IMG/VR virus record: IMGVR_UViG_3300044612_002649
DNA length: 64,000 bases
Direction: 5' to 3' (one strand)
Source of the DNA: an uncultured virus (IMG/VR IMGVR_UViG_3300044612_002649)
Lineage: Duplodnaviria > Heunggongvirae > Uroviricota > Caudoviricetes
The notes under the pieces were generated by a model that saw only the letters and a program-made list of their open reading frames with translations, did not search any database and was not told the origin of the DNA. Positions 36,024 to 48,934 of this stretch are shown one piece after another. Every line of letters starts with the position of its first letter. Position 1 is the first letter of the stretch. Position numbers and translations under genes: made by a program.

Positions 36024-36076
36024 CAGGCTCATTTTTTCTTGTTTGCAATAAGATTATGATATGCTGAATTGAGCCT
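36024..36076 (-). ncRNA. CAGCA-stem RNA carrying a Cys(GCA) anticodon stem-loop
   Basis: AGGCTCA / TGAGCCTG; TCTTA-TTGCAAA-CAAGA. Confidence 0.75.
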
Positions 36077-36082
36077 AAAATT

Positions 36083-36156
36083 TGGAGCGGACTACGAGAT
36101 TCGAACTCGTTTAGCTAGCTTGGAAGGCTAGAGCACAACCCATATGCCAAGTCCGC
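36083..36156 (-). tRNA. tRNA-Gly(TCC)
   Basis: Cloverleaf, loop CTTCCAA, CCA. Confidence 0.9.
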
Positions 36157-36165
36157 AATGTTTAA

Positions 36166-36220
36166 CAGGATACGTTTTATTTCACCAATTGAAAGTTTTT
36201 GTATTTGCTGAATGTATCCT
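36166..36220 (-). ncRNA. CAGCA-stem RNA with short hairpin cargo
   Basis: AGGATAC-ATT-CAGCA / GTATCCTG; TTTCA-ATTGG-TGAAA. Confidence 0.75.
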
Positions 36221-36239
36221 AAAACTGTTTATACTATAC

Positions 36240-36493
36240 ATTATATAGTAATTTTATTTCTTTGTCAATAACTTTTTGATAAATAGTTATGGTAATCAAA
36301 ATATTGGGAGTATTTTGAAACCTAGTCTAGAGGATCTAGGCTGTCCCATAATACATTATTTATACTAGAGGAAACACTATGTCAACATTTTGTTCTTGCA
36401 TCATATGCAAAAAAGAACTTTCTATCAAGGGATTTCATTCCCATTTTATTCGTTTACATACTATCGATGGTAATATAGCTACCAAACAGTATG
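36240..36493. repeat. Duplicated cassette head, copy 2
   Basis: Near-identical to 33873-34126. Confidence 0.9.
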
Positions 36494-37212
36494 GAAAACT
36501 ATCTACATTTAAAAATAAACAAAATGCAGATTTAAAAAATAATTTTATTAGAATCCAATATGCTAATATTCCTAGTCACTGTAAAGAATGTGACTGTTGC
36601 TTACCATATGAAAAACGTTCTAATAGTTTTTGTTCAAGTAGTTGCAGTGCAACTTACAATAACAACTTGCGTTCAGTAGGTGGATATAAAATGTCAATTA
36701 ATTCTAGACAAAAAATATCTGAAAAAAATACTGGGCACTTGAAACCGATTTATACCAAAATTGCATGTTGTAAAATATGCAAAAAATGGTTTGCTGGTAC
36801 AAATAAAACCTGCTCACTAACCTGTAGAAATATGAGCTTTTCATTAACCGCCAAAAAAACAAAATTAGGCGGTAATAAAAATACCAGAGCTTATGGTTGG
36901 TATTATTCAAAATTTGCTGGTAAGGTTTGGCTAGAATCATCTTATGAATACAAAGTTGCAAAAGAATTAGATGACAATAACATTAGATGGATACGTCCAT
37001 CTTTCCTTTTTTATACCTTAAATAATATAAAAAAGAGATATTACCCAGATTTCTTTTTAGAAGACTTCAATATCTTCCTAGATCCAAAAAATGATTACCT
37101 TATTATACAAGATCTTGAAAAAATAGAATGCGTTAGAAACCAAAATAATGTAAAAGTATTAGTTTTAACTAAATTTCAATTATCTTGGAAAATAATACAT
37201 TCATTGTTGTAA
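36379..37212 (+). CDS. Putative homing endonuclease (Cys-rich N-terminus, PD-(D/E)XK C-terminus)
   Basis: ESSYE...YYPDFFL...LDPKN. Confidence 0.75.
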   Translation: MSTFCSCIICKKELSIKGFHSHFIRLHTIDGNIATKQYGKLSTFKNKQNADLKNNFIRIQYANIPSHCKECDCCLPYEKRSNSFCSSSCSATYNNNLRSVGGYKMSINSRQKISEKNTGHLKPIYTKIACCKICKKWFAGTNKTCSLTCRNMSFSLTAKKTKLGGNKNTRAYGWYYSKFAGKVWLESSYEYKVAKELDDNNIRWIRPSFLFYTLNNIKKRYYPDFFLEDFNIFLDPKNDYLIIQDLEKIECVRNQNNVKVLVLTKFQLSWKIIHSLL

Positions 37213-37298
37213 TGGAGCTGAGTGTGGGACTCGAACCCACGGTGGGTGTTAACCAACGGCTTACAAGACCGCTCTAATCGCCGCTATAGGAACTCAGC
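37213..37298 (-). tRNA. tRNA-Thr(TGT) with long variable arm
   Basis: GCGGT-CTTGTAA-GCCGT; 15-nt variable region; CCA. Confidence 0.75.
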
Positions 37299-37692
37299 AT
37301 AGTTAGTACTGTTATGTGGGACCGTTTTTAAGATCCCACATAACAGTGTTCTTTACAATTTAACCTTTGTACCACACACAGTGCAGGTGCCATTGAGTTT
37401 TTTGAAATCAAGATTAAAAACTCTCATACCGGTACCGTATGTTTTATCTTGAAACTCATGTTTACAATTACATTTCTTTACTTCTACAGCCATTATGCAC
37501 CTCTTTTAATAAGAATGTTAATACGATTTTGATATTTACGTTTATCACGTGGTCTAACAGTTTTTTCAACTAGTTCTTGTAATTTAGCTAAACTAAAATT
37601 ACCAATTCTAACCTTACCATTTTTAGTTTGATTAGGGTTAGCTTTTCTGTTTCCTTTACTAATAGTTGCCATTTGATGTCCTTATTATACTA

Positions 37693-37998
37693 TTACTTAT
37701 TATTGTTGTCAAGTGTTTTTATATTTTCTTCGATAAATTTAATTGCTTCATCGACTGGTAATTCACCCACTTCTACATGAAATACATTTCTGTCTTGTGC
37801 ATGAGCACCATGTGAATTAAATGCTACTGTTGGCAATTCTTTATCAAATTTAGATACCAATCGTTCATCATTGTATGTATCTAACACTTCTTCAACAACT
37901 TCCTTTTTCTTACTGAAAATTGCATCCCAGTTATCTGCAAACTTCTGCCTGTTAACTGGTCTAGCTGCACTTCCTTTGCCGCCATGCCATCCTGCCAT
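37693..37998 (-). CDS. Hypothetical protein
   Basis: 101-aa ORF with GGAG RBS. Confidence 0.6.
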   Translation of the reverse strand: MAGWHGGKGSAARPVNRQKFADNWDAIFSKKKEVVEEVLDTYNDERLVSKFDKELPTVAFNSHGAHAQDRNVFHVEVGELPVDEAIKFIEENIKTLDNNNK

Positions 37999-38210
37999 TG
38001 TATCTCCGTTACATTTTTGTTGCCAATATAGTTTTGGCTAATTCTTTTGTTGCGATTAAATCATTCTGACTAAATGAACTTTTAATCTTTTCTGAAAATT
38101 CAATTCTTTCTTCTATTGTCATTAATCTATAAATTATTTTTATCAATTCATAATCAAATTCAGTTGGTTCTTCTAAATTTTCAAACATAAAAGTATTCTT
38201 GTCAGTGTGT

Positions 38211-38543
38211 TTAAATTTCAGGTTGAGTTTTTATGAATCGATCAATGTTTTGAATCATCAATTGTTTCAACCTAACTTTATCATATCCTGGTTCTTCTAA
38301 ACATTCTGGAAGTGTTAACCGGAATAAAGTTTCTTTTTCTTCATCATATATGGATAATGCCCATATCTGTGTTCCACAGAATCCACTAGCAGCTAATAAT
38401 ATCATTTGCCACCCATCACCTTTAATAAAACTATGGGTACGTTGCAATTGTGGTCCAACATTTGTTTTAAGAAAATCAAAAGTATTAGCTAATCTTTTTT
38501 GATAATCTTCTCCATATGATTCGTTTCCGTGTATTACTAGCAT
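38211..38543 (-). CDS. Hypothetical protein
   Basis: ATG at 38543 after GAGG; the ORF-track start lies inside tRNA-Ala. Confidence 0.55.
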   Translation of the reverse strand: MLVIHGNESYGEDYQKRLANTFDFLKTNVGPQLQRTHSFIKGDGWQMILLAASGFCGTQIWALSIYDEEKETLFRLTLPECLEEPGYDKVRLKQLMIQNIDRFIKTQPEI

Positions 38544-38563
38544 TTGTGCCTCTGTGTTAAAAT

Positions 38564-38637
38564 TGGTGGAGACTAGGAGAGTTGAACTCCTGATAACGCC
38601 GTGCAAGGGCGTGGTTATACCATTTAACTAAATCCCC
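38564..38637 (-). tRNA. tRNA-Ala(TGC)
   Basis: G3.U70 pair, loop CTTGCAC, CCA. Confidence 0.9.
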
Positions 38638-38642
38638 GATAT

Positions 38643-38720
38643 TGGCTCCCATCGCTGGTAACGATCCAGCCTCATTCTCGGTTAACAGCCGAGCGCATTC
38701 ACCATGATTGCTAGATGGGA
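38643..38720 (-). tRNA. tRNA-Asn(GTT)
   Basis: Loop CTGTTAA, GCCA end, atypical T loop. Confidence 0.85.
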
Positions 38721-39418
38721 TTTATTCTTTTTTTACCGTTTTGTGGTATAAATTCAGGAACTAATTTAGAGAATGCTATTACTAAATTTGGTTTAGAATA
38801 TTTATACCCAGTTATTCTTACAAACTCATCAAATCCAACATTTTTGTATATACTATACCATTCTATATGTTGGTTAATTCGTTGATTTTGTTTTTCTTCT
38901 TTTTCTGTTTTTATTTTTGTAAGAAGATTTTCATTTTTAACCAGTCTGGTAGAATATTCATCGAAATCTATAATTCGTTTTTTAATCCACCCATCTGGAA
39001 TTATATCAGTTTTTTTAACTTTTTTGGTTTCACGTAAAGCAATATTACTTATCCATATTGATCCATATTGTGAATTTTTTTTACCGGATTGTAATTCACT
39101 TTGGATTTTACTAAACTGATATCTTAATAGTTCATATTTCCTTGATGATACGTATCTACATTGATTTCCAGATTTACAATATAACATCATAATAAATGCT
39201 TTTATCATTTTATTACCATTTGCAGTTCCTGGTTTATATATTTTCATCAATAAGTAATGACATATATAATGTTCTCTAGCAGATAATTTTACTAAATTCA
39301 TAGGATTATCTGTTCCACCCAATGATTTAGGTATTATATGATGTGTCTCTGTGTATCCATTATATTTTTCATTTTGTCTTTTATCAATAATTTGATTGTA
39401 AATTTTTCTGTAATTCAT
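38711..39418 (-). CDS. HNH homing endonuclease
   Basis: HHIIPKSLGG...NLVKLSAREHYICH; stop codon lies inside tRNA-Asn. Confidence 0.9.
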   Translation of the reverse strand: MNYRKIYNQIIDKRQNEKYNGYTETHHIIPKSLGGTDNPMNLVKLSAREHYICHYLLMKIYKPGTANGNKMIKAFIMMLYCKSGNQCRYVSSRKYELLRYQFSKIQSELQSGKKNSQYGSIWISNIALRETKKVKKTDIIPDGWIKKRIIDFDEYSTRLVKNENLLTKIKTEKEEKQNQRINQHIEWYSIYKNVGFDEFVRITGYKYSKPNLVIAFSKLVPEFIPQNGKKRINPI

Positions 39419-39691
39419 ACTGTTAATCCATTTAACAGTATTTATGCATTTAACAGTTTTATTTAAAATAGTTTTTGATACTGTTGAAAAAAATCAATCA
39501 GTACATCTAACTTTTCCATTGCTTCTTGCTCTGTCATGTTAAATATCCTTTTTGATATATCGACAATTATTCTTTTTATAGTTTAGTATCAAGAGTGAGT
39601 TGTACCAAGATACCGATCATTCAAAATATTGTTATACAATATCTAAATCTCGCACCGCATGTTATTGTAAACTATTTTTTATTTATATTTT

Positions 39692-39753
39692 ATCAGGATG
39701 CGTTTTAACATTTTCAATTTATCAGGATGCGTTTTAACATTTTCAATTTATCA
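39692..39753. repeat. 29-bp tandem duplication of a CAGCA-stem RNA 3' end
   Basis: ATCAGGATGCGTTTTAACATTTTCAATTT occurs twice. Confidence 0.85.
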
Positions 39754-39785
39754 GATTGACGTTTAAAGTTTGCTGAATGCATCCT
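39723..39785 (-). ncRNA. CAGCA-stem RNA carrying an Ile(GAT) anticodon stem-loop
   Basis: AGGATGC / GCATCCTG; TCAAT-CTGATAA-ATTGA. Confidence 0.8.
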
Positions 39786-39794
39786 AAAACTTTA

Positions 39795-39883
39795 CAGGAT
39801 CTTTTATTTAGTGGACTTGAACCACTTAACTTACGATTTAGAGTCGTTTGTATTATCCAAAGGAAAGTTGCTGTAAAGATCCT
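39795..39883 (-). ncRNA. CAGCA-stem RNA carrying a CUA anticodon arm plus T arm
   Basis: ACGA-CTCTAAA-TCGT then AGTGG-TTCAAGT-CCACT. Confidence 0.8.
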
Positions 39884-39889
39884 AAATTT

Positions 39890-39978
39890 TGGCGGAAGAT
39901 GTGAGATTCGAACTCACGCAACCCTTTCGAGGTTGACGGTTTAGCAAACCGCTCCATTAACCACTCTGGCAACCTTCC
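39890..39978 (-). tRNA. tRNA-Ser(GCT)
   Basis: Long variable arm, loop TTGCTAA, GCCA. Confidence 0.92.
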
Positions 39979-39986
39979 TATATTCA

Positions 39987-40072
39987 TGGTAGCCGAGGGC
40001 GGAGTTGAACCGCCACGCCCGAAAGCAATGGATTTTAAGTCCATCATGTACTACCAATTTCATCACTCGGCC
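39987..40072 (-). tRNA. tRNA-Leu(TAA)
   Basis: Loop CTTAAAA, long variable arm, ACCA. Confidence 0.9.
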
Positions 40073-40085
40073 ATTAATTTTGTAT

Positions 40086-40164
40086 CAGGTTAGTTGCTTA
40101 CCTAAAGCTAATCGCATATAGCGACCGGAATCGAACCGACTGTTTATTTTGCTGTAGCTAACCT
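40086..40164 (-). ncRNA. CAGCA-stem RNA with minimal permuted tRNA cargo
   Basis: T arm CGG-TTCGATT-CCG, TCGC-TATAT-GCGA, D-like GCTTTAGGTAAGC. Confidence 0.8.
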
Positions 40165-40173
40165 AACATTTAT

Positions 40174-40308
40174 CAGAATGCATTTTATTTTTTCACCATC
40201 GCGTTTACCAGTTTCGCCACTTAAAACCAGGTTTTAAGGTAGGACTTGAACCTACAAATCAAAGATAACGGTTTCCTATTAATAAAATATAGTTGCTGTA
40301 AGCATTCT
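40174..40308 (-). ncRNA. CAGCA-stem RNA with permuted Leu-type tRNA cargo
   Basis: AGAATGC / GCATTCTG; T arm, CTTAAAAC-CTG-GTTTTAAG, D arm GCGAAACTGGTAAACGC. Confidence 0.85.
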
Positions 40309-40314
40309 AAATCT

Positions 40315-40389
40315 TGGAGGCAGAGGAGGGAATCGAACCCCCGACCTTCGGGTTATGAGCCCGACAATCTACCGCTGATATACTCTGCG
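40315..40389 (-). tRNA. tRNA-Met(CAT), initiator-like, second copy
   Basis: TCGGG-CTCATAA-CCCGA; CCA. Confidence 0.88.
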
Positions 40390-40445
40390 TTAATTCTTTG
40401 TGTATATTATACACGATTTTTTAATCTTGTCAATATTAATTTTAA

Positions 40446-40567
40446 CAGGATCCTTTTTTACGTCGCTCTACCAGACTGAGCTAATCCCCGGTAGTTTTTC
40501 GGGGATGTCGGATTCGAACCGACGACCAACGGCTCCCAATGCAATTATTGTATGCTGAACGGATCCT
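40446..40567 (-). ncRNA. CAGCA-stem RNA with permuted Pro-like tRNA cargo
   Basis: GTCGG-TTCGAAT-CCGAC, ATCCCCG-loop-CGGGGAT, GCTCAGTCTGGTAGAGC. Confidence 0.88.
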
Positions 40568-40765
40568 AAAACTTTAAAATTGTTAAAGAGCTTATTAACT
40601 AATATGTGTACATTATACACTAATTAAATTATATGTCAAGATATTTTTGAATTTAAATCATTAATAATTTGTTTTCCAACTGATTCATACGGCGTGGCTC
40701 CAGTAATCATATCTTGATTATCGTATTTATCCATATATTATACACAAACTAATTTATTAGTCAAT

Positions 40766-42822: not shown

Positions 42823-42959
42823 AAAAAAATAAATTCCAGGATAGTTTAATCTCTATGAAACCTCTATCTTCCTATTGAAAGTTATCTGGAACGGGCTAAC
42901 TCACTCTTGTTTATTTTAATAGGTTAAGAGCTTAACCGCCACAAAGGGCTCCTATTGTT

Positions 42960-43049
42960 TGGCGGAAGCGGTGAGATTCGAACTCACGGAACCTTGCGGT
43001 TCGCCAGTTTTCAAGACTGGTGCAATAGGCCATGCTCTGCCACACTTCC
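42960..43049 (-). tRNA. tRNA-Ser(TGA)
   Basis: Loop CTTGAAA, long variable arm. Confidence 0.92.
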
Positions 43050-43086
43050 ATAATTTGGAGGCCGGTCTATGACCTGCCTCAATAAT

Positions 43087-43164
43087 TGGTACCCTCTCTC
43101 AGATTCGAACTGAGACTATACGGTATCTAAAACCGTCTCCTCTACCAGATTGGGATAAGAGGGC
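43087..43164 (-). tRNA. tRNA-Leu(TAG) with short variable loop
   Basis: ACGGT-TTTAGAT-ACCGT; 5-nt variable loop; ACCA. Confidence 0.8.
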
Positions 43165-43251
43165 AAAATTTATTTATTCTAGTTTGCATAAACTATAGAA
43201 TGCTAGATGTCGGTTGTTTTTAATACAAATCATGGATCTATATTAAGTGCT

Positions 43252-43857
43252 TTACTTTATAATTCTTTCAAAATGCACATCTGCCTCATTACCGGTATGA
43301 CATTCGAGCTCTATAAAGCATCTAAATCCTCGCTCTTCTAACCATTTAACCACATCTTCAGTTCGGTTGTCTGTATTTTTATACAAATCTGCTTTATATG
43401 CGGTTTCACACTTTCCACGTTTAATATTGGTTATTTTATCACCTAAACTACGCAAAACATTAAAATCATTACCTTGTGCATCAATCCACAAATATTCTAC
43501 TTCACCTATACCATACATTTCCATAAATGTATCTAGCCGAAGAGTCATCACTCGTGCAATATCAGTGATTTGTAGATTCCTACCAGGCCAGTGCTCATAA
43601 CGATCTTCTTTGAATTCAAATAATGAAGAACAACCCCAATCTTCGACGCCTGCAATATTAAATTGTTTAAATCCATTTGTTAAATCAACAGCAGCTGGAA
43701 TTAGATTCCAATTTGAATTGAATTTAAATTTATTTTGTAAATTTACAACTAATGCTGGCGTTGGCTCGAATGAATACACTATATTCCCAGGATCTTGAAG
43801 AAAAGTAGCGGTATCATGCCCATCTTTTGCACCTATTTCTATAATTGTTTTATTCAT
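43252..43857 (-). CDS. FkbM-family methyltransferase
   Basis: IEIGAKDG, SFEP, WIDAQGND. Confidence 0.85.
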   Translation of the reverse strand: MNKTIIEIGAKDGHDTATFLQDPGNIVYSFEPTPALVVNLQNKFKFNSNWNLIPAAVDLTNGFKQFNIAGVEDWGCSSLFEFKEDRYEHWPGRNLQITDIARVMTLRLDTFMEMYGIGEVEYLWIDAQGNDFNVLRSLGDKITNIKRGKCETAYKADLYKNTDNRTEDVVKWLEERGFRCFIELECHTGNEADVHFERIIK

Positions 43858-43875
43858 AATTCCCTTTTTTATGTT

Positions 43876-43954
43876 TGGCACCCTTGGAAGGACTTGAACC
43901 TCCGACAAACCCACGTTCGTAGCGTGGTGCTCTAATCCACTGAGCTACAAGGGC
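43876..43954 (-). tRNA. tRNA-Arg(ACG)
   Basis: Loop CTACGAA, GCCA. Confidence 0.9.
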
Positions 43955-43964
43955 TTTATTTCAT

Positions 43965-44753
43965 CAGGATCTGCTTTTTACGGTTTCCTATCCACTAGAA
44001 GAACTCTTAAAGTTTGTGTTTGCAATTATCAAAGTGATATCGTTTCATATTTCCAATTCCACCTATTATATCACAATGAGGACAGCATACTTTAACTTGT
44101 GGTCCGCTTTTTATATCTTTGTTCCATGGAGTTTGCAATCCTGTTTTACCTTTATTCCATGGGGTTTGTCCAGTTTTTCCTTTCTTAATAGCAGACATTT
44201 TAGCTCTTTCTGCTGCTGTCCATATTTTTTTAGGTTTATTAGATCTTTGTTCTTTCAATATTGGCATTACTCTACCCAATCTCCAATTGTCAGGAATTGC
44301 AGTGTCAATATCAATAGATCTATTTTCATGTCCGTTTGTTATCCAGCGTCTTCCATACATCGAGTTGTTGTGACCAGTTCTAGTTTTGGCAGCCAGCTGC
44401 ATCTTTCGACGTAACCAACCATATAACTTATTATTTCTATTTTGATTATCACTGGTCACAGTCATCATAGTAGCAGCATATACTAGTGAGTAATTATCAT
44501 ATATTTTAACCAACAATAGATGTGCTACATAATGTTCTTCTGGCGTTAATTTAACCACATTGTCCGGGTCATCTTTCCCGCCCATACATCGTGGAATAAT
44601 ATGATGTTTCTCAAAGTATTCATTATCGAGAAACGTTCTATTTTTTCCACGATGTATTAATTTTTCATATATAATTTTATAGTTCATATAGTATTTATAC
44701 TTATGAACCTACGTTCCCGGCCTGGAATGCTAATTGTATGCGGTATAGATCCT
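43965..44753 (-). ncRNA. CAGCA-stem RNA (CCGCA variant) interrupted by an HNH gene
   Basis: 5' arm AGGATCT at 44753 and 3' arm AGATCCTG at 43965 flank the ORF. Confidence 0.7.
44007..44687 (-). CDS. HNH homing endonuclease
   Basis: HHIIPRCMGG...NVVKLTPEEHYVAH; PWNKG repeats. Confidence 0.9.
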   Translation of the reverse strand: MNYKIIYEKLIHRGKNRTFLDNEYFEKHHIIPRCMGGKDDPDNVVKLTPEEHYVAHLLLVKIYDNYSLVYAATMMTVTSDNQNRNNKLYGWLRRKMQLAAKTRTGHNNSMYGRRWITNGHENRSIDIDTAIPDNWRLGRVMPILKEQRSNKPKKIWTAAERAKMSAIKKGKTGQTPWNKGKTGLQTPWNKDIKSGPQVKVCCPHCDIIGGIGNMKRYHFDNCKHKL

Positions 44754-44762
44754 AAAATTGTT

Positions 44763-45038
44763 TTACTTCAATTGTGACTTTCTAAACATTCGGTCCAATT
44801 TAGTATTGATATCTTTGCAGAGTTGTTCAGATCGTTCTGCTGCTTTTACTGCATTATCAACTTTTGAACTAACAGTTGATAGAGCGCGATTAGTATCTAC
44901 TAATCCAGTACTCAATGTTTTTTGATTTGTAGTAATTACATCGATTTCACCTTGTAATTTGGCGATATCTGTGTTTGTTGCACATCCAGTAACCAATGCT
45001 AAAGCACCAACCATGAATAACATATTTAATTTTCTCAT
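44763..45038 (-). CDS. Lpp/OprI-like alanine-zipper lipoprotein
   Basis: Lipobox VTGC; coiled coil; KLDRMFRKS end. Confidence 0.75.
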   Translation of the reverse strand: MRKLNMLFMVGALALVTGCATNTDIAKLQGEIDVITTNQKTLSTGLVDTNRALSTVSSKVDNAVKAAERSEQLCKDINTKLDRMFRKSQLK

Positions 45039-45063
45039 TTTACACCTTTGTTAATTAAAATCA

Positions 45064-45154
45064 CAGGATGATATATTGTTTCGGAGCCGGGAGATTCGAA
45101 CTCCCAGAAGATACCCGCTTATCGGCTTCGGCATTTTTGTGCTGTAATCACCCT
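45064..45154 (-). ncRNA. CAGCA-stem RNA with T-arm cargo
   Basis: AGGGTGAT / ATCATCCTG; GGGAG-TTCGAAT-CTCCC. Confidence 0.75.
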
Positions 45155-45164
45155 TATTAATCAG

Positions 45165-45578
45165 TTAAGATAATCGTTCTTTTTCTGATTCCATAAAGCG
45201 TGTTCGTTTTACAAGTGATAAAACGAATTCTGACTCAGCAATTGATTTGGAATCAAGATCAACTCGCAAGTTCAAGAAGTAAGAAACATCATTATGAACC
45301 AGTTTAATGGAACTATAGTCTGTTACTTCCGCAGTGAATGATTTTGGAATTTGAATTACAACATCCATCAATCGTTCGAAATGTTTATCCGCATCAACAA
45401 AGTATTGTTCAACAAATGTTTTTAAGTGATGTGGTGTATTTCTTAATGTTTCGGATTTATAGTTTCTATAATTTCCGACTGAAACTGTTACCGCTTCAAT
45501 AAGGTCAGTACCAGTGTATCTAGGATACTCAGGGATTAAGTTGTAAGGTTTTTTTACTTCTTGTTCAATTACTAGCAT
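45165..45578 (-). CDS. Hypothetical protein
   Basis: ORF with GGA RBS. Confidence 0.55.
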   Translation of the reverse strand: MLVIEQEVKKPYNLIPEYPRYTGTDLIEAVTVSVGNYRNYKSETLRNTPHHLKTFVEQYFVDADKHFERLMDVVIQIPKSFTAEVTDYSSIKLVHNDVSYFLNLRVDLDSKSIAESEFVLSLVKRTRFMESEKERLS

Positions 45579-45606
45579 TATATCATTCCGATAATAGTTA
45601 AAAAAT

Positions 45607-45680
45607 TGGCAGGGATACACGGATTCGAACCATGGATGACTGGATCAAAACCAGTTGTGTTACCACTACACCATATCCCA
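45607..45680 (-). tRNA. tRNA-Gln(TTG)
   Basis: U1-start, loop TTTTGAT, GCCA. Confidence 0.9.
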
Positions 45681-45690
45681 ATTGTTATTA

Positions 45691-45808
45691 CAGGTTAGCA
45701 TTTTAAGTTTTCCCAATTAAACTACATTAGTGACCAACCCTAACGCTGGGATTCGAACCCAGAACTTTCTTTTACAATAAGATTTAATAAAATTGCTGAA
45801 ACTAACCT
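45691..45808 (-). ncRNA. CAGCA-stem RNA with permuted tRNA cargo
   Basis: CTGGG-TTCGAAT-CCCAG, CGTTAG-loop-CTAATG, GTTTAATTGGGAAAAC. Confidence 0.85.
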
Positions 45809-45848
45809 ATTGGTCTTATTCGCTGGTGACTAGCCTCGAATATTCTGT

Positions 45849-45911
45849 CAGGATACACATTTTACGGGTTTGATTAGCTGTCAAATGTATGATTGTTGCT
45901 GTAGGTATCCT
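45849..45911 (-). ncRNA. CAGCA-stem RNA with a 7-nt-loop hairpin (GCT triplet)
   Basis: AGGATAC / GTATCCTG; TTTGA-CAGCTAA-TCAAA. Confidence 0.75.
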
Positions 45912-45967
45912 AGAACTGTTTATGCTATGTATTATACATCATTTTTATTCATTGTCAATATTTATTT

Positions 45968-46042
45968 TGGAGCGGGTAATGAGATTCGAACTCACGACAT
46001 TCAGGTTGGCAACTTGAAGCTCTACCACTGAGCTATACCCGC
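45968..46042 (-). tRNA. tRNA-Gly(GCC)
   Basis: Loop TTGCCAA, TCCA. Confidence 0.9.
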
Positions 46043-46049
46043 TCAAAAT

Positions 46050-46124
46050 TGGCGGACTGTACGGAATTTGAATCCGTGATACCACCGTGACAGGGTGGCG
46101 TGATAACCGCTTCACTAACAGTCC
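46050..46124 (-). tRNA. tRNA-Asp(GTC)
   Basis: Loop CTGTCAC, GCCA. Confidence 0.9.
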
Positions 46125-46246
46125 AAAATTGTTGAGTATCTAACATCATACAATACTCGGGAGACCTCTACCAGCCTCGTTTTTATTACTGAGCCTATCC
46201 GAAGATAGTGTTTAAAATGATATTAAGGTTGCCCAGCTCTAGAGTT

Positions 46247-46323
<77 letters not shown>

Positions 46324-46629
46324 ATAATTCTATTTAAACGGAGTTTTTTCACAGGCTAATGCATGATGATATGCTATTTTCATAGACTCATATTTTTCCG
46401 TTGCTTCGCTTAATTGTTGCTGTAATTTTAGCATATCTTGTTCTACATAATCAAGATTTCTTTTAACGATATCCGATGTTCTTTTACCTGCCATATATAG
46501 ACCTTTTAGAAATAAAAGAATCACCCCAGTCGGTAGCATGAAATACCGCATATTTTTTAGATTTTTCACCATGTTTTTCATGGAATTTTTTAGTAGCTTC
46601 TTCGTTTACTATTGCGGTTCTTTTCATAC

Positions 46630-47004
46630 TTACCTCGCAAATCCACGATTTCTCAGTAATTGTGATAATTCATATTCGAATGTACCAAAATCAGACCTTT
46701 CACGCCCATAAATTGTATCAGGAACAATAATACCAATACTAGTCAATGCATTGTCAATCGATGGTTCATTAAAAATCGCCCATGGATATTCGTTTGTTTC
46801 ATTGTTTAACAAATTGACAATGTTTGCCATCTGTTCACTAGTACCACCATTCAATACAATTGCAGTTTTGTGGTTTTCAGCCCAATCTACCAATAGTTCG
46901 TTAGTTGTACCATATTTGTTGTTGATCTCTTGCAGTGCATGCAAAGATTGTATACCGTGTTGTATAGAACTCAGGTACATGTTTGTTAAAAAATAAGCTC
47001 TCAT
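46630..47004 (-). CDS. Phage Pth2-fold (peptidyl-tRNA hydrolase-like) protein
   Basis: LSSIQHGIQSLHA...W...HKTAIVLNGG...F.EP...LTSIG. Confidence 0.6.
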   Translation of the reverse strand: MRAYFLTNMYLSSIQHGIQSLHALQEINNKYGTTNELLVDWAENHKTAIVLNGGTSEQMANIVNLLNNETNEYPWAIFNEPSIDNALTSIGIIVPDTIYGRERSDFGTFEYELSQLLRNRGFAR

Positions 47005-47079
47005 AGTTTTCCTATATGTTACTGAGTATTTATTATTTGAGGTTATCAATCATCTGGGTAGTTACCAAAACTAATTAGG

Positions 47080-47153
47080 GGTGACCGATAGGACTTGAAC
47101 CCATAAAATTCTGAATCACAATCAGGGTCGTCTACCAATTCCGACACGGCCAC
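47080..47153 (-). tRNA. tRNA-His(GTG), no encoded CCA or G-1
   Basis: Loop TTGTGAT, discriminator C. Confidence 0.8.
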
Positions 47154-47171
47154 ACCTAATTAGTCTAATTT

Positions 47172-47654
47172 TATAATAAACCACACTACGGAAGGATTCG
47201 AACCTTCGGTTGCCGTCGCACTCAACACGCCAGTGTACCTCGATACGAATCGAACGTATCTTACCACCATTTATAGTGTAGTTTATTATATAATCATATA
47301 GTAAAGTGCATTAAACGAGGGAACACGAATGCTACACATCCTCCTGTCTCCGGCCCTCAAGCTTAACATCCTTCTGGCCAGTGATGTTAAGGTGACTGAT
47401 TAATACACTTTAATATAAAATTATATAGAAACACATGCTGAAGGACGAACGGCGTATTTCCATCGAAGAACTATATCTTTCTCATCGCCGTATAGCTTCC
47501 CGCACGATATAGTCTGAGTTGCGCTTCAGGATGTGTTTTTATATAATCATATAATAAAGCATACTACACGGAATTGAACCGTCTTCATTCAAGCCCGGAG
47601 CTCAAACTGTGATCCACACAACGCTGATCAGACGCTAATATGCTTTATTATATG
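47172..47654 (-). ncRNA. Tandem array of four long-terminal-stem RNA units (family 2)
   Basis: Units 47172-47290, 47297-47416, 47421-47546 and 47548-47654, each closed by an approx. 16-20-bp AT-rich imperfect inverted repeat. Confidence 0.65.
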
Positions 47655-47657
47655 ATT

Positions 47658-47733
47658 TGGTAGGACCGCCGAGACTCGAACTCGAATTCCCGGATTAAAA
47701 GTCCGGTGTTCTAACCAATTGAACTACGATCCC
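47658..47733 (-). tRNA. tRNA-Lys(TTT)
   Basis: CCGGA-CTTTTAA-TCCGG; ACCA. Confidence 0.92.
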
Positions 47734-47799
47734 AAATTTTCTTGCCTTCTTTTTCTGTTTTTGTCTTTCGTTTCATAATTATTTCCTATGTTGTTATAG

Positions 47800-47861
47800 C
47801 AGGATACGTTTTTACTAGTTGAATTAAAAGTTCAGTGTAAATTGTTTGCTGAATGTATCCT
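47800..47861 (-). ncRNA. CAGCA-stem RNA carrying a Lys(TTT) anticodon stem-loop
   Basis: AGGATAC / GTATCCTG; TGAA-CTTTTAA-TTCA. Confidence 0.8.
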
Positions 47862-47894
47862 AAAACTGTTTATGCTGTTAATTATACAGCATTT

Positions 47895-48221
47895 TTATAC
47901 GTTGTCAATTATTTTATCTGGATATTGTGCATCACGGCGTTCAATTTCAGCATATGGACTGTAGCCAGGCTGTAATTCCGTGATATTAGTAAATCCATTG
48001 GTTTCTGTAATCAAACTATCATTAGAATCGATAGAACCACGATATTTACTACCATAACTACCTTCTAATTTACCAGTACTCGGATTAAGATCACCCCATT
48101 TAGTGTGATTACCACCGATAACTTCAATATAGTAGGTTTTACCAGTTCGGTATGAATAAACAACATGTCTACCGGTATCTTCAGTTTTTGTAAAAAATTT
48201 CTTTCGGGTTTCTTCGTCCAT
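47895..48221 (-). CDS. Hypothetical phage protein
   Basis: ATG at 48221 after AAGGA. Confidence 0.65.
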   Translation of the reverse strand: MDEETRKKFFTKTEDTGRHVVYSYRTGKTYYIEVIGGNHTKWGDLNPSTGKLEGSYGSKYRGSIDSNDSLITETNGFTNITELQPGYSPYAEIERRDAQYPDKIIDNV

Positions 48222-48239
48222 AATAGTTTCCTTTGTGTT

Positions 48240-48313
48240 TGGTGCTTTAGAAATGAATCGAACCTCTGTCTGCTCGGTGTAAACGAACGGCCCTACCATT
48301 AGACGACTAAAGC
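48240..48313 (-). tRNA. tRNA-Val(TAC)
   Basis: Loop TTTACAC, ACCA; weak T stem. Confidence 0.75.
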
Positions 48314-48492
48314 TATAATTGTTGCTTTCTTATTCCCGGCTATCACAGAGGTTGCCACTTGTACTTCATGGTTCTCAACTTGCAGGTTCTGGCGGAACAG
48401 AATTCTCGTATTGCCAACGTGCTTTTGGTTCAAAGCATACCACCCGTGTGTATCACCACACTTCTTATCCTCTGGGTCAGAGTATCCGTTGA

Positions 48493-48780
48493 TTAGACGG
48501 TTCGTTCTTCAAGTACTTGTTGTTCCCATTTACTTTTTAAATAGATTTTTTTACCATGCAACCAATATTCTTCTTCTGTGAAATTAGTAATAACAGCAGG
48601 GCCGTGTTCATTATGATATTTCCCATCTTGGCAATAACAAGTTCTGCGGCCATCATATCTAATAATTGCTGGTCCATCTGTGTTATGCGATCTTCCATTT
48701 TTCATAAAAACTGTTGTTGTATCAGATACGCTAATAGTGAGTTCAGGATTGTCTGGGTTAATATATTCCATAATTACCAA
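48493..48780 (-). CDS. Hypothetical protein with HxxxGPA repeats
   Basis: HNTDGPA and HNEHGPA. Confidence 0.6.
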   Translation of the reverse strand: MVIMEYINPDNPELTISVSDTTTVFMKNGRSHNTDGPAIIRYDGRRTCYCQDGKYHNEHGPAVITNFTEEEYWLHGKKIYLKSKWEQQVLEERTV

Positions 48781-48796
48781 ATTGTAAAGTTAAAAT

Positions 48797-48872
48797 TGGT
48801 GCTACCGACTGGGATCGAACCAGTATAGCTGGATTTTCAGTCCAGTGCATGAACCATCACTGCCACAGTAGC
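48797..48872 (-). tRNA. tRNA-Phe(GAA)
   Basis: Loop CTGAAAA, ACCA. Confidence 0.9.
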
Positions 48873-48880
48873 AAAATTAT

Positions 48881-48934
48881 CAGGATACGCTTTTTCATTT
48901 TTCAAGAATGTTTTTTAATTGCTGCATGTATCCT
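48881..48934 (-). ncRNA. CAGCA-stem RNA carrying a Ser(TGA) anticodon stem-loop
   Basis: AGGATAC / GTATCCTG; CATT-CTTGAAA-AATG. Confidence 0.8.

What the first reader, a model, noticed from the sequence alone, without database searches (positions are those of the whole stretch)
36024..48934. Short copies display isolated anticodon stem-loops: a candidate decoy library
Seen: in the short copies the cargo hairpin has a 7-nt loop of anticodon form. These are TTGCAAA (Cys, 36037-36053), CTGATAA (Ile, 39743-39759), CTTTTAA (Lys, 47820-47834), CTTGAAA (Ser UGA, 48896-48910) and CAGCTAA (45869-45885, lacks U33). The 39795 copy has CTCTAAA (CUA, 39833-39847) together with a T arm. Four of these loops are identical to loops of full tRNAs in this window (Ile, Lys, Ser-UGA, CUA). 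Established: antiphage anticodon nucleases such as PrrC cleave tRNA-Lys(UUU). Inference: a protein-protected scaffold presents anticodon loops as decoys for such nucleases or as ligands for modification enzymes or synthetases.
Basis: partly seen in the sequence, partly recalled or inferred. Interest (0 to 1): 0.85.

Follow-up and report, generated by a model that had tools for sequence, protein, structure and literature searches.

The report
Anticodon-arm mimics on phage Ro-like RNAs
A large freshwater phage encodes, next to a Ro60-like protein gene, a family of small scaffolded RNAs whose variable middle is built from tRNA parts, and in several of the shortest ones that part is a look-alike of a tRNA anticodon arm, which may bait or tether proteins that read tRNA anticodons.

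Summary
All six hairpins lie at the stated coordinates on the minus strand. Four loops (CTGATAA, CTTTTAA, CTTGAAA, CTCTAAA) equal those of the window's own tRNAs. The "Cys" one is weak: an A·C mismatch leaves 4 bp and a 9-nt loop.

- **Family:** 17 scaffolded RNAs lie upstream of a DUF2828/DUF7788 gene whose model matches Ro60/TROVE structures. The scaffold is a 7-bp terminal stem followed by NUNCAGCA(A).
- **Relatives:** in 80 related viral loci the same rule finds 306 copies on the gene strand and 4 on the other.
- **Enrichment:** 32 of 89 unique short copies carry a 4-5 bp stem with a YU-NNN-RA loop. Shuffles give 2.5, natural background 0.8-2%.
- **tRNA-like detail:** no triplet starts with A, and stems never exceed 5 bp.
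- **Distant phages:** strict anticodon-arm look-alikes recur beside DUF2828 genes in Mycobacterium, Campylobacter, Enterococcus and Klebsiella phages.

Caveats: only about a third of short copies are of this type. The hairpins are thermodynamically marginal and absent from MFE folds. Expression and protein binding are not shown.

The decoy function is untested. Long copies resemble YrlA but lack its Ro-binding motif. The scaffold resembles Dictyostelium Class I RNAs below Rfam's threshold. I rate this a new variant of the Y-RNA kind.

The parts
36024..36076 (-). Short copy (53 nt). The hairpin at 36037-36053 has loop TTGCAAA only if an A·C pair is accepted; otherwise it is 4 bp with a 9-nt loop. 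This is the weakest of the listed cases.
36166..36220 (-). Short copy (55 nt) with hairpin TTTC-AATTGGT-GAAA. It is not anticodon-like. Its GG-containing loop is reminiscent of a D loop.
   Evidence: the same hairpin motif occurs in Klebsiella phage KP13-26; Rfam RF01414 29.9 bits
39723..39785 (-). Short copy (63 nt) with an anticodon-arm look-alike at 39743-39759: TCAAT-CTGATAA-ATTGA. The loop equals that of tRNA-Ile(GAU).
   Evidence: orthologues carry CTGAAAA (L005, L006) and CTCAAAA (L004)
39795..39883 (-). Mid-size copy (89 nt): anticodon-arm look-alike at 39833-39847 (ACGA-CTCTAAA-TCGT), then AAGTT and a T arm. The loop equals that of the window's tRNA(CUA).
   Evidence: (Rfam tRNA 27.9 bits, gathering 29)
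45849..45911 (-). Short copy (63 nt). Hairpin at 45869-45885: TTTGA-CAGCTAA-TCAAA, with A instead of U at position 33. The orthologue in L004 has CTGCTAA.
47800..47861 (-). Short copy (62 nt) with an anticodon-arm look-alike at 47820-47834: TGAA-CTTTTAA-TTCA. The loop equals that of tRNA-Lys(UUU).
   Evidence: RF01414 23.1 bits
48881..48934 (-). Short copy (54 nt) with an anticodon-arm look-alike at 48896-48910: CATT-CTTGAAA-AATG. The loop equals that of tRNA-Ser(UGA).
   Evidence: RF01414 29.2 bits
40446..40567 (-). Long copy (122 nt) with the same scaffold. Its cargo is a T arm, a loop-closed acceptor stem and a D arm, as in YrlA.
   Evidence: Rfam YrlA 50.5 bits, gathering 69
35592..35703 (-). 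Long copy (112 nt), YrlA-like cargo.
   Evidence: (YrlA 41.8 bits)
33427..35812 (-). Stretch holding further copies on the same scaffold at 33427-33642, 33653-33759, 34908-34993 and 35714-35812. It also spans the 35592-35703 copy listed separately.
40086..40308 (-). Two further copies with T-arm cargo, at 40086-40164 and 40174-40308.
45064..45808 (-). Two further long copies, at 45064-45154 and 45691-45808. The second has ATCTT-ATTGTAA-AAGAA before a variable stretch and a T arm.
31862..33274 (-). Gene for a 470-aa DUF2828 + DUF7788 protein with a Ro60-like fold (helical ring plus vWA). It lies just downstream of the RNA array on the same strand and is the presumed protein partner.
24241..31807 (-). 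Downstream translation and RNA-repair context: PTH2 (31361-31807), YqeY (30740-31219), AAA_33 kinase (27160-27624) and a T4 Rnl1-type RNA ligase (24241-25134).

Best explanation
**What it is**
- The short copies are the smallest members of a family of 17 structured RNAs.
- They are interleaved with the tRNA array of a roughly 367-kb T4-like freshwater phage.
- They lie upstream of, and on the same strand as, a gene for a Ro60-like protein (DUF2828 plus a vWA domain).

**Anatomy**
- Every member has one scaffold. The ends pair (5' AGGNNNN with 3' NNNNCCU, followed by G), and the 5' arm is followed by NUNCAGCA(A).
- By analogy with Ro60 and Y RNAs, I take this scaffold to be the protein's binding site. 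This step is inferred.
- Between the scaffold halves sits a variable cargo made of tRNA parts. It can be a T arm with a closed acceptor stem and a D arm (as in YrlA), an anticodon arm with a T arm, or one small hairpin in the short copies.
- In 4 of the window's 6 short copies, and in 32 of 89 in the lineage, that hairpin copies a tRNA anticodon arm. It has a 4-5 bp stem and a 7-nt loop reading C-U-NNN-A-A with a free middle triplet. This is shown.

**How I think it works (inferred)**
- The particle displays tRNA parts as ligands for proteins that recognise tRNA.
- The anticodon-arm copies engage proteins that read anticodon loops.
- The most plausible partners are host anticodon nucleases, or tRNA modification and repair enzymes.
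- The RNA could soak such proteins up (decoy) or tether the Ro-like protein to them.
- Which partner is involved, and whether the RNA acts as decoy or tether, is open.
For: **The family is real**
- Scaffold arms co-vary: AGGATAC/GTATCCT, AGGCTCA/TGAGCCT, AGGTTAG/CTAACCT, AGGGTCA/TGACCCT and others.
- In the window, 17 copies lie on the minus strand and 0 on the plus strand. In 80 related loci, 306 lie on the gene strand and 4 on the other.

**The protein is Ro60-like**
- The AlphaFold2 model has pLDDT 89.9.
- The top 13 Foldseek matches are all Ro60/TROVE structures, with E from 2e-8 to 6e-6 and TM 0.38-0.64.

**RNA and gene travel together**
- I found the same scaffold next to the DUF2828 gene in 11 of 12 distant phage loci. 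This is my reading.
- These include E. coli HY02, Listeria LMTA-57, Mycobacterium Whirlwind, Campylobacter F361, Enterococcus EfV12-phi1, Klebsiella KP13-26 and Bacillus vB_BcoS-136.

**The anticodon-arm likeness is real**
- 32 of 89 short copies qualify, against 2.5 +/- 1.6 in shuffles and 0.8-2.1% in natural background.
- In a subfamily defined only by its 3' linker, 16 of 18 qualify.
- Of 25 distinct stem-loop combinations, 17 have 5-bp stems, 8 have 4-bp stems and none is longer.
- None of the 13 distinct triplets starts with A, although A makes up 47% of cargo bases. Six start with G, which makes up 7.7%.
- In an alignment of 40 segments, positions 32, 33 and 38 are at least 90% conserved and position 37 is invariant, while 34-36 vary.
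- Orthologous copies differ in the triplet: GAU, GAA and CAA in one group; UGA, GUA and CGA in another.
- In 9 sources with more than one such copy, none repeats a triplet.
- Strict look-alikes also occur in Whirlwind (TTTCA-CTGCTAA-TGAAA), F361 (CTGATAA), EfV12-phi1 (CTGAAAA, then a variable stretch and a T arm) and KP13-26 (CTGCTAA, then a T arm).

**Context**
- An Rnl1-type RNA ligase, a kinase and PTH2 lie downstream in the window.
- RtcB lies near the gene in LMTA-57, and an RNA ligase beside it in fHe-Yen9-04.
- LeBron encodes an RNA ligase and a polynucleotide kinase as well as its Ro-like gp53 (PMC13148394, passages).

**Precedent**
- Thermus phage Ro60 binds two Y-like RNAs encoded upstream of its gene and recruits host PNPase (PMC12135203, passages).
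- YrlA mimics tRNA and is a substrate of tRNA enzymes (PMC4201824, passages).
Against: - No expression or end mapping exists for this phage. Metatranscriptome contigs cover the region only at low depth and cannot show transcripts.
- Protein-RNA binding is inferred from linkage only.
- The hairpins are AU-rich, absent from MFE structures and worth -0.8 to +1.7 kcal/mol.
- 57 of 89 short copies are not anticodon-like. They fall into CATA-type loops (24), GG loops (9), a T arm (1) and others (23).
- The copy closest to the gene in most loci is of the CATA type.
- The orthologues of the 39795 copy have loops CTCTAAA, CTCGTAA, TTAATAT, CAAAAT and CTAATCA, so constraint is relaxed there.
- The covariation count on alignment A2 is circular, because those rows were chosen for having a stem.
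- Many of the 89 copies are orthologues. By cargo similarity there are 18 clusters, and 6 hold anticodon-like members.
- Real targets of anticodon nucleases carry modified bases and GC-rich stems, and AriB also contacts the D loop (PMC12409363, passages).
Confidence: 0.45

Rival explanations
1. The hairpin is a relic. Only the scaffold matters: the short RNAs gate or stabilise the Ro-like protein, as the short Y RNAs (YrlB, Yrn2) may do. The anticodon-arm shape is then left over from a tRNA-derived ancestor and has no partner of its own.
For: - Two thirds of short copies have other hairpins.
- The hairpins are thermodynamically marginal.
- Loops drift in the orthologues of the 39795 copy.
- Long copies in several phages hold an anticodon-arm-like hairpin before a variable stretch and a T arm. 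Short copies could therefore be deletion products.
Against: - C32, U33, A37 and A38 are kept while the stems change by compensating pairs: six different stems carry CTTTTAA.
- The form recurs in phages whose proteins are only 31-38% identical to the window's.
- The stems are AU-rich, unlike the window's own tRNA stems, so these are not recent copies.
- A34 is avoided.
Confidence: 0.2
2. The hairpin is a structural module. The C-U-NNN-A-A loop is kept because it folds into a compact U-turn that docks on the Ro-like protein or on another RNA. The likeness to anticodon loops would then be convergence of shape, not mimicry of tRNA identity.
For: - Only the four flanking loop positions are conserved; the middle three are free.
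- Other short copies have their own conserved loops (AATTGGT, GCATA), which suggests several docking modules.
Against: - A pure shape constraint does not explain why no triplet begins with A, or why G is favoured at position 34.
- It also does not explain why the arm is followed by a variable stretch and a T arm in tRNA order in the mid-size and long copies.
Confidence: 0.15
3. The hairpin is a sentinel or a repair substrate. The displayed anticodon arm is cut by a host nuclease during infection. The broken RNA, held together by the scaffold, then signals to or is resealed by the phage's ligase and kinase. This would couple the Ro-like protein to tRNA repair, as in the rsr-yrlBA-rtcBA operon.
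For: - RNA ligase and kinase genes lie near DUF2828 in the window and in other phages (PMC13148394, passages).
- The Salmonella repair operon that holds rsr and yrlA is switched on by damaged tRNAs (PMC7790460, search listing and abstract only).
Against: There is no direct evidence. This rival rests on the same untested steps as the decoy idea, plus a further one.
Confidence: 0.1
4. These are not separate RNAs. The elements would be processing or punctuation signals of the tRNA polycistron, and the inner hairpins incidental.
For: Many copies start within about 10 nt of a tRNA 3' end.
Against: - In Mycobacterium phage Whirlwind and Campylobacter phage F361 the elements sit by the DUF2828 gene with only one tRNA nearby.
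- The loop statistics are not expected of spacers.
- Long copies are YrlA-like.
Confidence: 0.05

Closest known systems
Ro60 (Rsr) with Y RNAs: bacterial YrlA/YrlB (Rfam RF02553) and Thermus phage phiLo Ro60 with Yrl1/Yrl2
   Same: - A ring-plus-vWA protein of Ro60 fold.
- Several small RNAs are encoded beside its gene on the same strand.
- The RNA ends pair into a stem.
- The long copies carry a T arm, a closed acceptor stem and a D arm, like YrlA.
- RNA-repair genes lie nearby.
   Different: - The protein belongs to Pfam DUF2828/DUF7788, not TROVE. Sequence profiles do not link it significantly to Ro60 (E 0.25).
- The motif next to the 5' arm is NUNCAGCA(A), not GNCGAAN0-1G or CGAA (PMC4201824 and PMC12135203, passages).
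- Rfam YrlA scores stay under gathering (50.5 and 41.8 against 69).
- There are many copies (17) spread through a tRNA array.
- YrlA has no anticodon-arm hairpin; here an anticodon arm is displayed alone.
- Two cluster L phage names, LeBron and Faith1, are absent from the phage table of PMC4201824 (one supplementary file could not be searched).
Dictyostelid Class I RNAs (Rfam RF01414)
   Same: - Length of 42-65 nt.
- A short terminal stem kept by compensating changes.
- A conserved motif directly after the 5' arm whose core, UUACAGCAA, is shared (alignment).
- Conserved ends: AAG...CUGU in Dictyostelia against (U/A)AGG...CCUG(U/A) here (PMC7919456, passages).
- All five RF01414 matches that I saw fall on short copies.
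   Different: - Scores are 20.6-29.9 bits against a gathering score of 41.5.
- There are no matches with E up to 1 in the Listeria, E. coli and Mycobacterium phage loci.
- Class I RNAs are eukaryotic, have their own promoter element, and have a known binder in the RRM protein Rnp1A.
- Whether dictyostelids have a DUF2828 protein was not tested here.
tRNA anticodon arms, and phage tRNAs that evade anticodon nucleases
   Same: - A 4-5 bp stem and a 7-nt loop with C32, U33, A37 and A38, and no A34.
- Triplets include UUU, UGU and GUU, which are the AriB targets named in PMC12409363 (passages).
- The copies sit in a phage tRNA array.
   Different: - They have no acceptor stem, D arm or CCA end, and ARAGORN does not call them.
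- The stems are AU-rich and weak.
- They cannot decode. If they counter tRNA-targeting immunity, it would be by binding rather than by replacing tRNAs.
Phage T4 Rnl1 and Pnk repair of PrrC-cut tRNA-Lys
   Same: An Rnl1-type ligase and a kinase are encoded 5-9 kb downstream of the array. The theme is the same: conflict over anticodon loops.
   Different: The T4 system has no RNA component. A link between the ligase here and these RNAs is only positional.

Membership tests
Y RNA / YrlA (RF02553) | Encoded next to, and on the strand of, a Ro60-type protein gene | tested here: met
   The array at 33427-48934 (-) lies directly upstream of 31862-33274 (-). The protein model matches Ro60/TROVE structures. 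Pfam names it DUF2828/DUF7788, not TROVE.
Y RNA / YrlA (RF02553) | Reaches Rfam's gathering score (69 bits) | tested here: not met
   The best long copies score 50.5 and 41.8 bits. Short copies give no YrlA match.
Y RNA / YrlA (RF02553) | Ro-binding motif GNCGAAN0-1G near the 5' end | tested here: not met
   All copies have NUNCAGCA(A) after the 5' arm. The YrlA motif is as given in PMC4201824 (passages).
Y RNA / YrlA (RF02553) | tRNA-like domain: T arm, closed acceptor stem, D arm | tested here: met
   This holds for long copies only, for example 40446-40567 (alignment). It does not hold for the short copies in question.
Y RNA / YrlA (RF02553) | Bound by the Ro protein | not testable with these tools
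   This needs pull-down or gel shift.
Dictyostelid Class I RNA (RF01414) | 42-65 nt with a short terminal stem joining the 5' and 3' ends | tested here: met
   The window's short copies are 53-63 nt with a 7-bp stem and compensating changes.
Dictyostelid Class I RNA (RF01414) | 11-nt motif next to the 5' arm | tested here: inconclusive
   The core (U)UACAGCAA or UUCAGCAA is present; the first bases of the motif are not.
Dictyostelid Class I RNA (RF01414) | Reaches Rfam's gathering score (41.5 bits) | tested here: not met
   Scores are 29.9, 29.2, 23.1, 20.6 and 27.2 bits. There is no match in L081-L083.
tRNA anticodon arm | 5-bp stem closing a 7-nt loop | tested here: inconclusive
Of 25 distinct stem-loop combinations, 17 have 5 bp, 8 have 4 bp and none is longer.
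tRNA anticodon arm | Y32, U33, purine 37, and no A34 | tested here: met
   31 of the 32 qualifying copies have C-U...A-A. None of 13 triplets begins with A. The exception in the window is 45869-45885, with A33.
tRNA anticodon arm | Part of a whole tRNA with an acceptor stem | tested here: not met
   ARAGORN and Rfam tRNA do not call the short copies.
Anticodon-nuclease decoy | Binds or is cut by an anticodon nuclease and protects tRNA or the phage | not testable with these tools
   This needs cleavage, competition and plating assays.

The most novel reading that the evidence does not exclude
Phage Ro-like (DUF2828) proteins carry a modular library of isolated tRNA arms on one common RNA scaffold. 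The arms include anticodon arms with different triplets, hairpins with D-loop-like GG loops, and T arms. The library would blunt tRNA-targeting host immunity. The same scaffold (terminal stem, UUACAGCAA, ...CUG) survives in eukaryotes as the dictyostelid Class I RNAs. That would make those RNAs relatives of this phage family and predict a DUF2828-type partner for them.
Probability: 0.2. Interest if true: 0.9.

Novelty: new variant of a known kind. Interest (0 to 1): 0.75.

Why it matters
- DUF2828 proteins occur in 711 deposited phage genomes and in 6233 protein clusters at 50% identity. Their RNA partners appear to be undescribed. My searches for DUF2828, for YrlA with phage, and for Ro-like with phage and tRNA found no paper describing this RNA family. 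No Rfam 15 family reaches its gathering score on the short copies.
- If the particle displays anticodon arms, it adds an RNA-based way for phages to deal with enzymes that read or cut tRNA anticodons. Carrying spare tRNAs and repairing cut ones are the ways already known.
- It would give Y-RNA biology a clear case in which the variable module sets the partner.
- The likeness of the scaffold to Dictyostelium Class I RNAs gives a testable lead for a class of abundant eukaryotic RNAs of unknown mechanism.

Tried and rejected
- **Rfam at gathering thresholds:** found only tRNAs, tmRNA and Polynucleobacter-1.
- **Earlier notes of this scan:** none.
- **Protein against PDB by sequence:** nothing as a single sequence. 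As a profile, Ro60 reaches only E 0.25. The link to Ro60 came from the fold alone.
- **ESM Atlas:** only DUF2828 clusters, with no taxa that helped on eukaryotes.
- **Pfam DUF2828 in the window's own assembly:** not held. The nearest record, G001, has the gene, and the 14 control genomes have none.
- **RF01414 on related and distant loci:** the best score is 27.2 bits, and there is no match with E up to 1 in L081-L083. Family membership is therefore not claimed.
- **Does each anticodon-like copy have a cognate tRNA in the same phage?** By my reading, yes for 15 of 20 copies in sources holding at least 20 tRNAs. These phages carry nearly full tRNA sets and the loci are partial, so this says nothing either way.
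- **Covariation count on the 40 chosen hairpins:** 94% of cells paired and a score of 0.97 against 0.24 for shuffles. I do not count this as independent support, because the rows were chosen for having a stem.
- **Metatranscriptome contigs:** four runs from two studies hold the region, mostly at low depth. One 197-nt contig at 33437-33633 nearly coincides with the element at 33427-33642. Contigs cannot show transcripts or ends, and DNA carry-over is possible.
- **The three highly transcribed regions upstream of the homologous gene in Listeria phage CKA15 (PMC12282133, passages):** I could not tell whether they are the three scaffold RNAs I found in LMTA-57 at 5664-5926 or the ROOL-like RNA at 4470-5021.
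- **Relaxed scan in Yersinia phage fHe-Yen9-04:** found no convincing copy within 3 kb of the gene.

Full report
**Setting**

The window is AT-rich phage DNA.
- It holds 25 tRNA genes and a tmRNA, all on the minus strand.
- T4-type structural genes (gp23, gp9/10) lie elsewhere in the window.
- The protein discussed below sits on a contig of 367 kb in public data, so this is a jumbo phage.
- Its nearest relatives come from viral contigs of environmental metagenomes. The RNA libraries that hold the region are labelled freshwater.

**The repeat family**

A pattern search and a look at the minus strand show a repeated element.
- It begins (U)UUAGG-NNNN-N-U-N-CAGCA-(A/U) and ends NNNN-CCUG.
- For 16 of 19 candidate 5' motifs, an exact 7-nt complement of AGGNNNN lies 46-128 nt downstream.
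- Two more candidates pair with one G·U. One copy (5' half near 44754) is interrupted by an HNH open reading frame. One candidate (49535) has no partner.
- The arms differ between copies by compensating changes, for example AGGATAC/GTATCCT, AGGCTCA/TGAGCCT, AGGTTAG/CTAACCT, AGGGTCA/TGACCCT and AGAATGC/GCATTCT.
- A simple rule (AG[GA], seven bases, CNGCA, then a pairing 3' arm followed by G) finds 17 copies on the minus strand of the window and none on the plus strand.

**The neighbouring protein**

Directly downstream on the same strand lies a 470-aa protein at 31862-33274.
- It matches Pfam DUF7788 (1e-48) and DUF2828 (2e-20).
- Sequence searches against solved structures gave nothing significant.
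- An AlphaFold2 model built on 50 diverse homologues has a mean pLDDT of 89.9.
- Its 13 best Foldseek matches in the PDB are all Ro60/TROVE proteins. They are the TROVE-domain entry 9KOP, which the Thermus phage phiLo paper gives as its crystal structure, then Xenopus, human and Deinococcus Ro60 and the phiLo Ro60 dimer 9L5Y. E-values run from 2e-8 to 6e-6, over about 500 or more alignment columns. After them come isolated vWA domains.
- The protein therefore has a Ro60-like fold, although Pfam does not place it in TROVE.
- Homologues occur in 711 phage records. Cluster L mycobacteriophages annotate them as 'Ro-like RNA binding protein'.

**What the copies are**

The long copies carry a T arm, an acceptor-like stem closed by a loop, and a D arm.
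- Rfam's YrlA model aligns to two of them over its whole length, but below gathering: 50.5 and 41.8 bits against 69.
- Only the tRNA-like core aligns well. The YrlA Ro-binding motif, GNCGAAN0-1G (PMC4201824, passages), is replaced here by NUNCAGCA(A).
- The family is therefore Y-RNA-like in plan and in its neighbour gene, but it is not a member of RF02553.

The window has six short copies of 53-63 nt: 36024-36076, 36166-36220, 39723-39785, 45849-45911, 47800-47861 and 48881-48934. A seventh copy, at 39795-39883, has an anticodon-arm-like hairpin followed by AAGTT and a T arm, in tRNA order. Rfam's tRNA model gives it 27.9 bits against a gathering score of 29.

**Checking the observation**
- Four loops equal the anticodon loops of the window's own tRNAs for Ile, Lys, Ser-UGA and CUA. 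These are CTGATAA, CTTTTAA, CTTGAAA and CTCTAAA.
- The 'Cys' case is weak. Its stem has an A·C mismatch at the loop, which leaves 4 bp and a 9-nt loop, and the loop differs from that of tRNA-Cys.
- The sixth short copy (36166-36220, loop AATTGGT) is not anticodon-like.
- Energetics do not help. No MFE structure contains these hairpins. Adding them to the scaffold changes the energy by -0.8 to +1.7 kcal/mol.

**Is it more than chance?**

I fetched 80 loci around relatives of the protein at 64-100% identity.
- The same rule finds 306 copies on the gene strand and 4 on the other.
- That makes 323 copies with the window's, of which 234 are unique and 89 are unique copies of 72 nt or less.
- Of these 89, 54 have some stem of 4 bp or more with a 7-nt loop. 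In 32 the loop is YU-NNN-RA, and in 31 it is CU-NNN-AA.
- Dinucleotide shuffles of the same cargos give 2.5 +/- 1.6, with a maximum of 8 in 500.
- Random non-element, non-tRNA windows of the same lengths from the same loci give 0.8%, or 2.1% if AT-rich.
- The feature belongs to the short class: 32 of 89, against 2 of 20 mid-size and 12 of 125 long elements. The long class has far more sequence per element and probably includes mis-joined elements.

**Details that fit tRNA**
- Among 25 distinct stem-loop combinations, the stem is 5 bp in 17, 4 bp in 8 and never longer.
- There are 13 distinct triplets: UUU, UGA, GCU, UGU, GCA, UCU, GAU, CAA, GAA, CGA, GUU, GUA and UUC.
- None begins with A, although A makes up 47% of the cargo. 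Six begin with G, which makes up 7.7%. Twelve end in A or U.
- In an alignment of 40 such segments, loop positions 32, 33 and 38 are at least 90% conserved and position 37 is invariant, while 34-36 vary.
- Six different stems carry the loop CTTTTAA.

**Independence**

The copies are not independent of one another.
- By cargo similarity the 89 fall into 18 clusters, and 6 of these hold anticodon-like members.
- A subfamily that I defined by its 3' linker alone, without looking at the hairpin, has the feature in 16 of 18 members.
- The covariation count on the chosen segments is circular, and I do not lean on it.

**Turnover of the triplet**
- Orthologous copies that are otherwise nearly identical differ in the triplet.
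- The window copy at 39723 has GAU, while its counterparts have GAA (L005, L006) and CAA (L004).
- Another orthologous group has UGA, GUA and CGA.
- In the 9 sources that hold more than one anticodon-like copy, no triplet is repeated.
- Against this, the orthologues of the 39795 copy have CTCTAAA, CTCGTAA, TTAATAT, CAAAAT and CTAATCA. The form is not held there.

**Distant phages**

I read 12 loci around DUF2828 genes of unrelated phages whose proteins are 30-49% identical to the window's. I scanned them with a relaxed rule. That rule gives false hits inside genes, so I counted only intergenic copies that share arms within a phage.

By that reading the scaffold is present in 11 of 12 loci:

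| Phage | Copies | Scaffold or note |
|---|---|---|
| E. coli HY02 | 4 | AGACC..UACAGCAA..GGUCUGG |
| 'Staphylococcus' SA1 (classed in Ounavirinae, like HY02) | 2 | |
| Listeria LMTA-57 | 3 | directly upstream of the gene |
| Mycobacterium Whirlwind | 3 | directly downstream of the gene |
| Synechococcus BUCT-ZZ01 | at least 4 | |
| Campylobacter F361 | 2 | |
| Enterococcus EfV12-phi1 | 3 | |
| Vibrio K575 | 1-2 | |
| Bacillus vB_BcoS-136 | 7 | |
| Klebsiella KP13-26 | 5 | |
| Fusobacterium phiKSUM | 1 | |
| Yersinia fHe-Yen9-04 | 0 | none convincing |

Strict anticodon-arm look-alikes occur in 4 of the 12:
- Whirlwind: TTTCA-CTGCTAA-TGAAA, in a 55-nt short copy.
- F361: CATTA-CTGATAA-TGATG.
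- EfV12-phi1: ACAT-CTGAAAA-ATGT, then a variable stretch, T arm, closed acceptor stem and D arm.
- KP13-26: TTCA-CTGCTAA-TGAA, then a T arm.

Four more have near forms with one deviation. These are CTTTTAC and TCGTAAA in BUCT-ZZ01, TCGATAC in K575, CCGGTAA in HY02, and CTGATAT and CAGATAA in vB_BcoS-136.

In several long copies the order is anticodon arm, variable stretch, T arm, closed acceptor stem, D arm. That is a tRNA opened between the D arm and the anticodon arm and tied off by the scaffold.

**Other short-copy types**

The 89 short copies sort as follows.
- 32 are anticodon-like.
- 24 have loops with a GCATA-type motif. Shuffles give 4.6, with a maximum of 11. This is the copy about 70 nt upstream of the gene in most loci.
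- 9 have GG-containing loops such as AATTGGT. Shuffles give 0.8, with a maximum of 4.
- 1 has a T arm only (L025:1579).
- 23 are others.

The hairpin motif (U/C)UUC-AAUUGGU-GAAA recurs in Klebsiella phage KP13-26. It has a 4-bp stem and a loop ending in GG-U, and it reminds me of a D arm. That likeness is from memory of tRNA anatomy and was not tested. The family may thus display several kinds of single tRNA arm, of which the anticodon arm is the clearest.

**Context**
- Downstream of the protein gene lie PTH2, a YqeY-like protein, an AAA_33 kinase, a metallophosphatase and a T4 Rnl1-type RNA ligase.
- LMTA-57 has RtcB 1.3 kb downstream of its DUF2828 gene.
- fHe-Yen9-04 has an RNA ligase next to its gene.
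- LeBron's Ro-like gp53, RNA ligase and polynucleotide kinase were all toxic when overexpressed (PMC13148394, passages).
- In Listeria phage CKA15, the homologous protein was found in purified virions, and highly abundant non-coding transcripts arise within 2 kb upstream of its gene (PMC12282133, passages). I could not tell which RNAs those are.

**Mechanism**

What is shown:
- the scaffold;
- its linkage to a Ro60-fold protein across phage diversity;
- the tRNA-part nature of the cargo;
- the anticodon-arm form of a third of the short copies.

What is inferred:
- The protein binds the scaffold.
- The displayed arm is read by a protein that recognises anticodon loops.

Ro60 biology offers the model. 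Y RNAs bind Ro through the terminal stem and use their variable module to bring in a partner, such as PNPase in Deinococcus, Salmonella and Thermus phage phiLo (PMC4201824 and PMC12135203, passages). On that model, an anticodon-arm module would engage an anticodon-reading enzyme. Candidates are host anticodon nucleases (PrrC, RloC, colicin-type, VapC or MazF, AriB, activated Cas13a; listed in PMC12409363, passages, and in the abstract of PMC11042736 as shown in the search listing), tRNA modification enzymes, or the phage's own repair ligase.

The turnover of triplets, their non-redundancy within a genome, and the prominence of UUU fit a conflict with tRNA-targeting defence. UUU occurs in 9 of the 32 copies. 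UUU, UGU and GUU are AriB targets. None of this proves the point. I put the general reading (a ligand for anticodon-reading proteins) at 0.45, and the specific nuclease-decoy reading at roughly 0.25-0.3 within it.

**The scaffold and Dictyostelium**
- Rfam's model of dictyostelid Class I RNAs (RF01414) gave five sub-threshold matches. All fall on short copies: 29.9, 29.2 and 23.1 bits in the window, 20.6 on a fourth copy, and 27.2 in L026.
- The printed consensus is GaUcuC-CUUACAGCAA-...-GagAuC-UG. It shares the terminal stem, the UUACAGCAA core right after the 5' arm, and the ...CUG end.
- The Class I paper describes RNAs of 42-65 nt that start AAG and end CUGU, with a stem kept by compensating changes, and reports them in no other organism (PMC7919456, passages).
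- From memory, Pfam describes DUF2828 as a family of eukaryotes and viruses. I could not check whether dictyostelids have it.
- The scores are under gathering, and the distant phage loci gave no match. This is a lead, not a membership.

**Novelty**
- Phage Ro60 with Y-like RNAs, and tRNA mimicry by YrlA, are known.
- I did not find this scaffold, its link to the DUF2828 branch, or the display of an isolated anticodon arm in print.
- Rfam 15 does not cover it.
- The phage table of PMC4201824 lists TROVE-type phages such as Bxz1, phage G and CcrColossus. Two cluster L names that I searched for, LeBron and Faith1, are not in it (one supplementary file could not be searched).
- I rate it a new variant of a known kind.

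Noticed in passing
window 36166-36220, 47800-47861, 48881-48934, 39723-39785 (-); L026:1709-1771: Rfam's Dictyostelium Class I RNA model (RF01414) gives its only sub-threshold matches (20.6-29.9 bits, gathering 41.5) exactly on short copies. The shared features are a terminal stem, the UUACAGCAA core and a ...CUG end.
   Followed up: partly
window 36166-36220 (-); L094 (Klebsiella phage KP13-26) 4986-5104; L025:1579: Other short copies show other single hairpins. One is a GG-loop hairpin, UUUC-AAUUGGU-GAAA, and the same loop with a CUUC/GAAA stem recurs in a Klebsiella phage; it looks D-arm-like to me. One 56-nt copy has cargo that is a T arm only.
   Followed up: partly
related loci, about 70 nt upstream of the DUF2828 gene (for example L037:9934, L039:1557): The copy nearest the gene has a conserved 9-nt loop of the type AAGCAUAUC and is not anticodon-like. 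This class accounts for 24 of the 89 short copies.
   Followed up: partly
window 43966-44754 (-): One copy appears split. Its 5' half ends inside a T-arm-like GTAGGTTCA. An HNH/NUMOD3 reading frame follows at 44007-44687. A matching 3' arm (AGATCCTG) lies near 43966, just before tRNA-Arg.
   Followed up: partly
window 39681-39743: A 29-nt tandem duplication repeats the 3' half of the 39723-39785 copy, from ...GATAAATTGAAAATGTTAAAACGCATCCT. This gives the element two possible 3' arms.
   Followed up: no
window 53191-53346 (-): A Polynucleobacter-1 RNA (RF01718) match at 64.6 bits, above its gathering score of 37, inside a phage genome.
   Followed up: no
window 58819-59254 (-): A phage-borne tmRNA of the permuted (two-piece) kind, with tag ANDSKFEFYTVDGIFDAIAA. 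It matches RF04321 at 134 bits.
   Followed up: no
window 54796-54870 (-): A tRNA with anticodon CUA, which ARAGORN names Pyl. It is a possible amber suppressor. Its loop CTCTAAA is the one copied in the 39795-39883 element.
   Followed up: no
window 33868-34136 and 36235-36503: A 269-nt direct repeat (96% identical) that covers promoter-like sequence and the starts of two plus-strand reading frames, 34012-34818 and 36379-37212. Neither frame has a Pfam match.
   Followed up: no
window 55294-58808 (-): A tellurite-resistance-type cluster in the phage: TerD, a TerC-like DUF475 protein, a vWA-TerF-like protein and TelA.
   Followed up: no
L082 (Listeria phage LMTA-57) 4470-5021 and 1983-2081: A ROOL-like RNA (88.5 bits, gathering 99.1) and a drum RNA (50.2 bits, gathering 43) lie in the tRNA region upstream of the DUF2828 gene.
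   Followed up: no
L042:7410-7510: ARAGORN reports a tRNA with a four-base anticodon (tacc) in a related phage's array.
   Followed up: no
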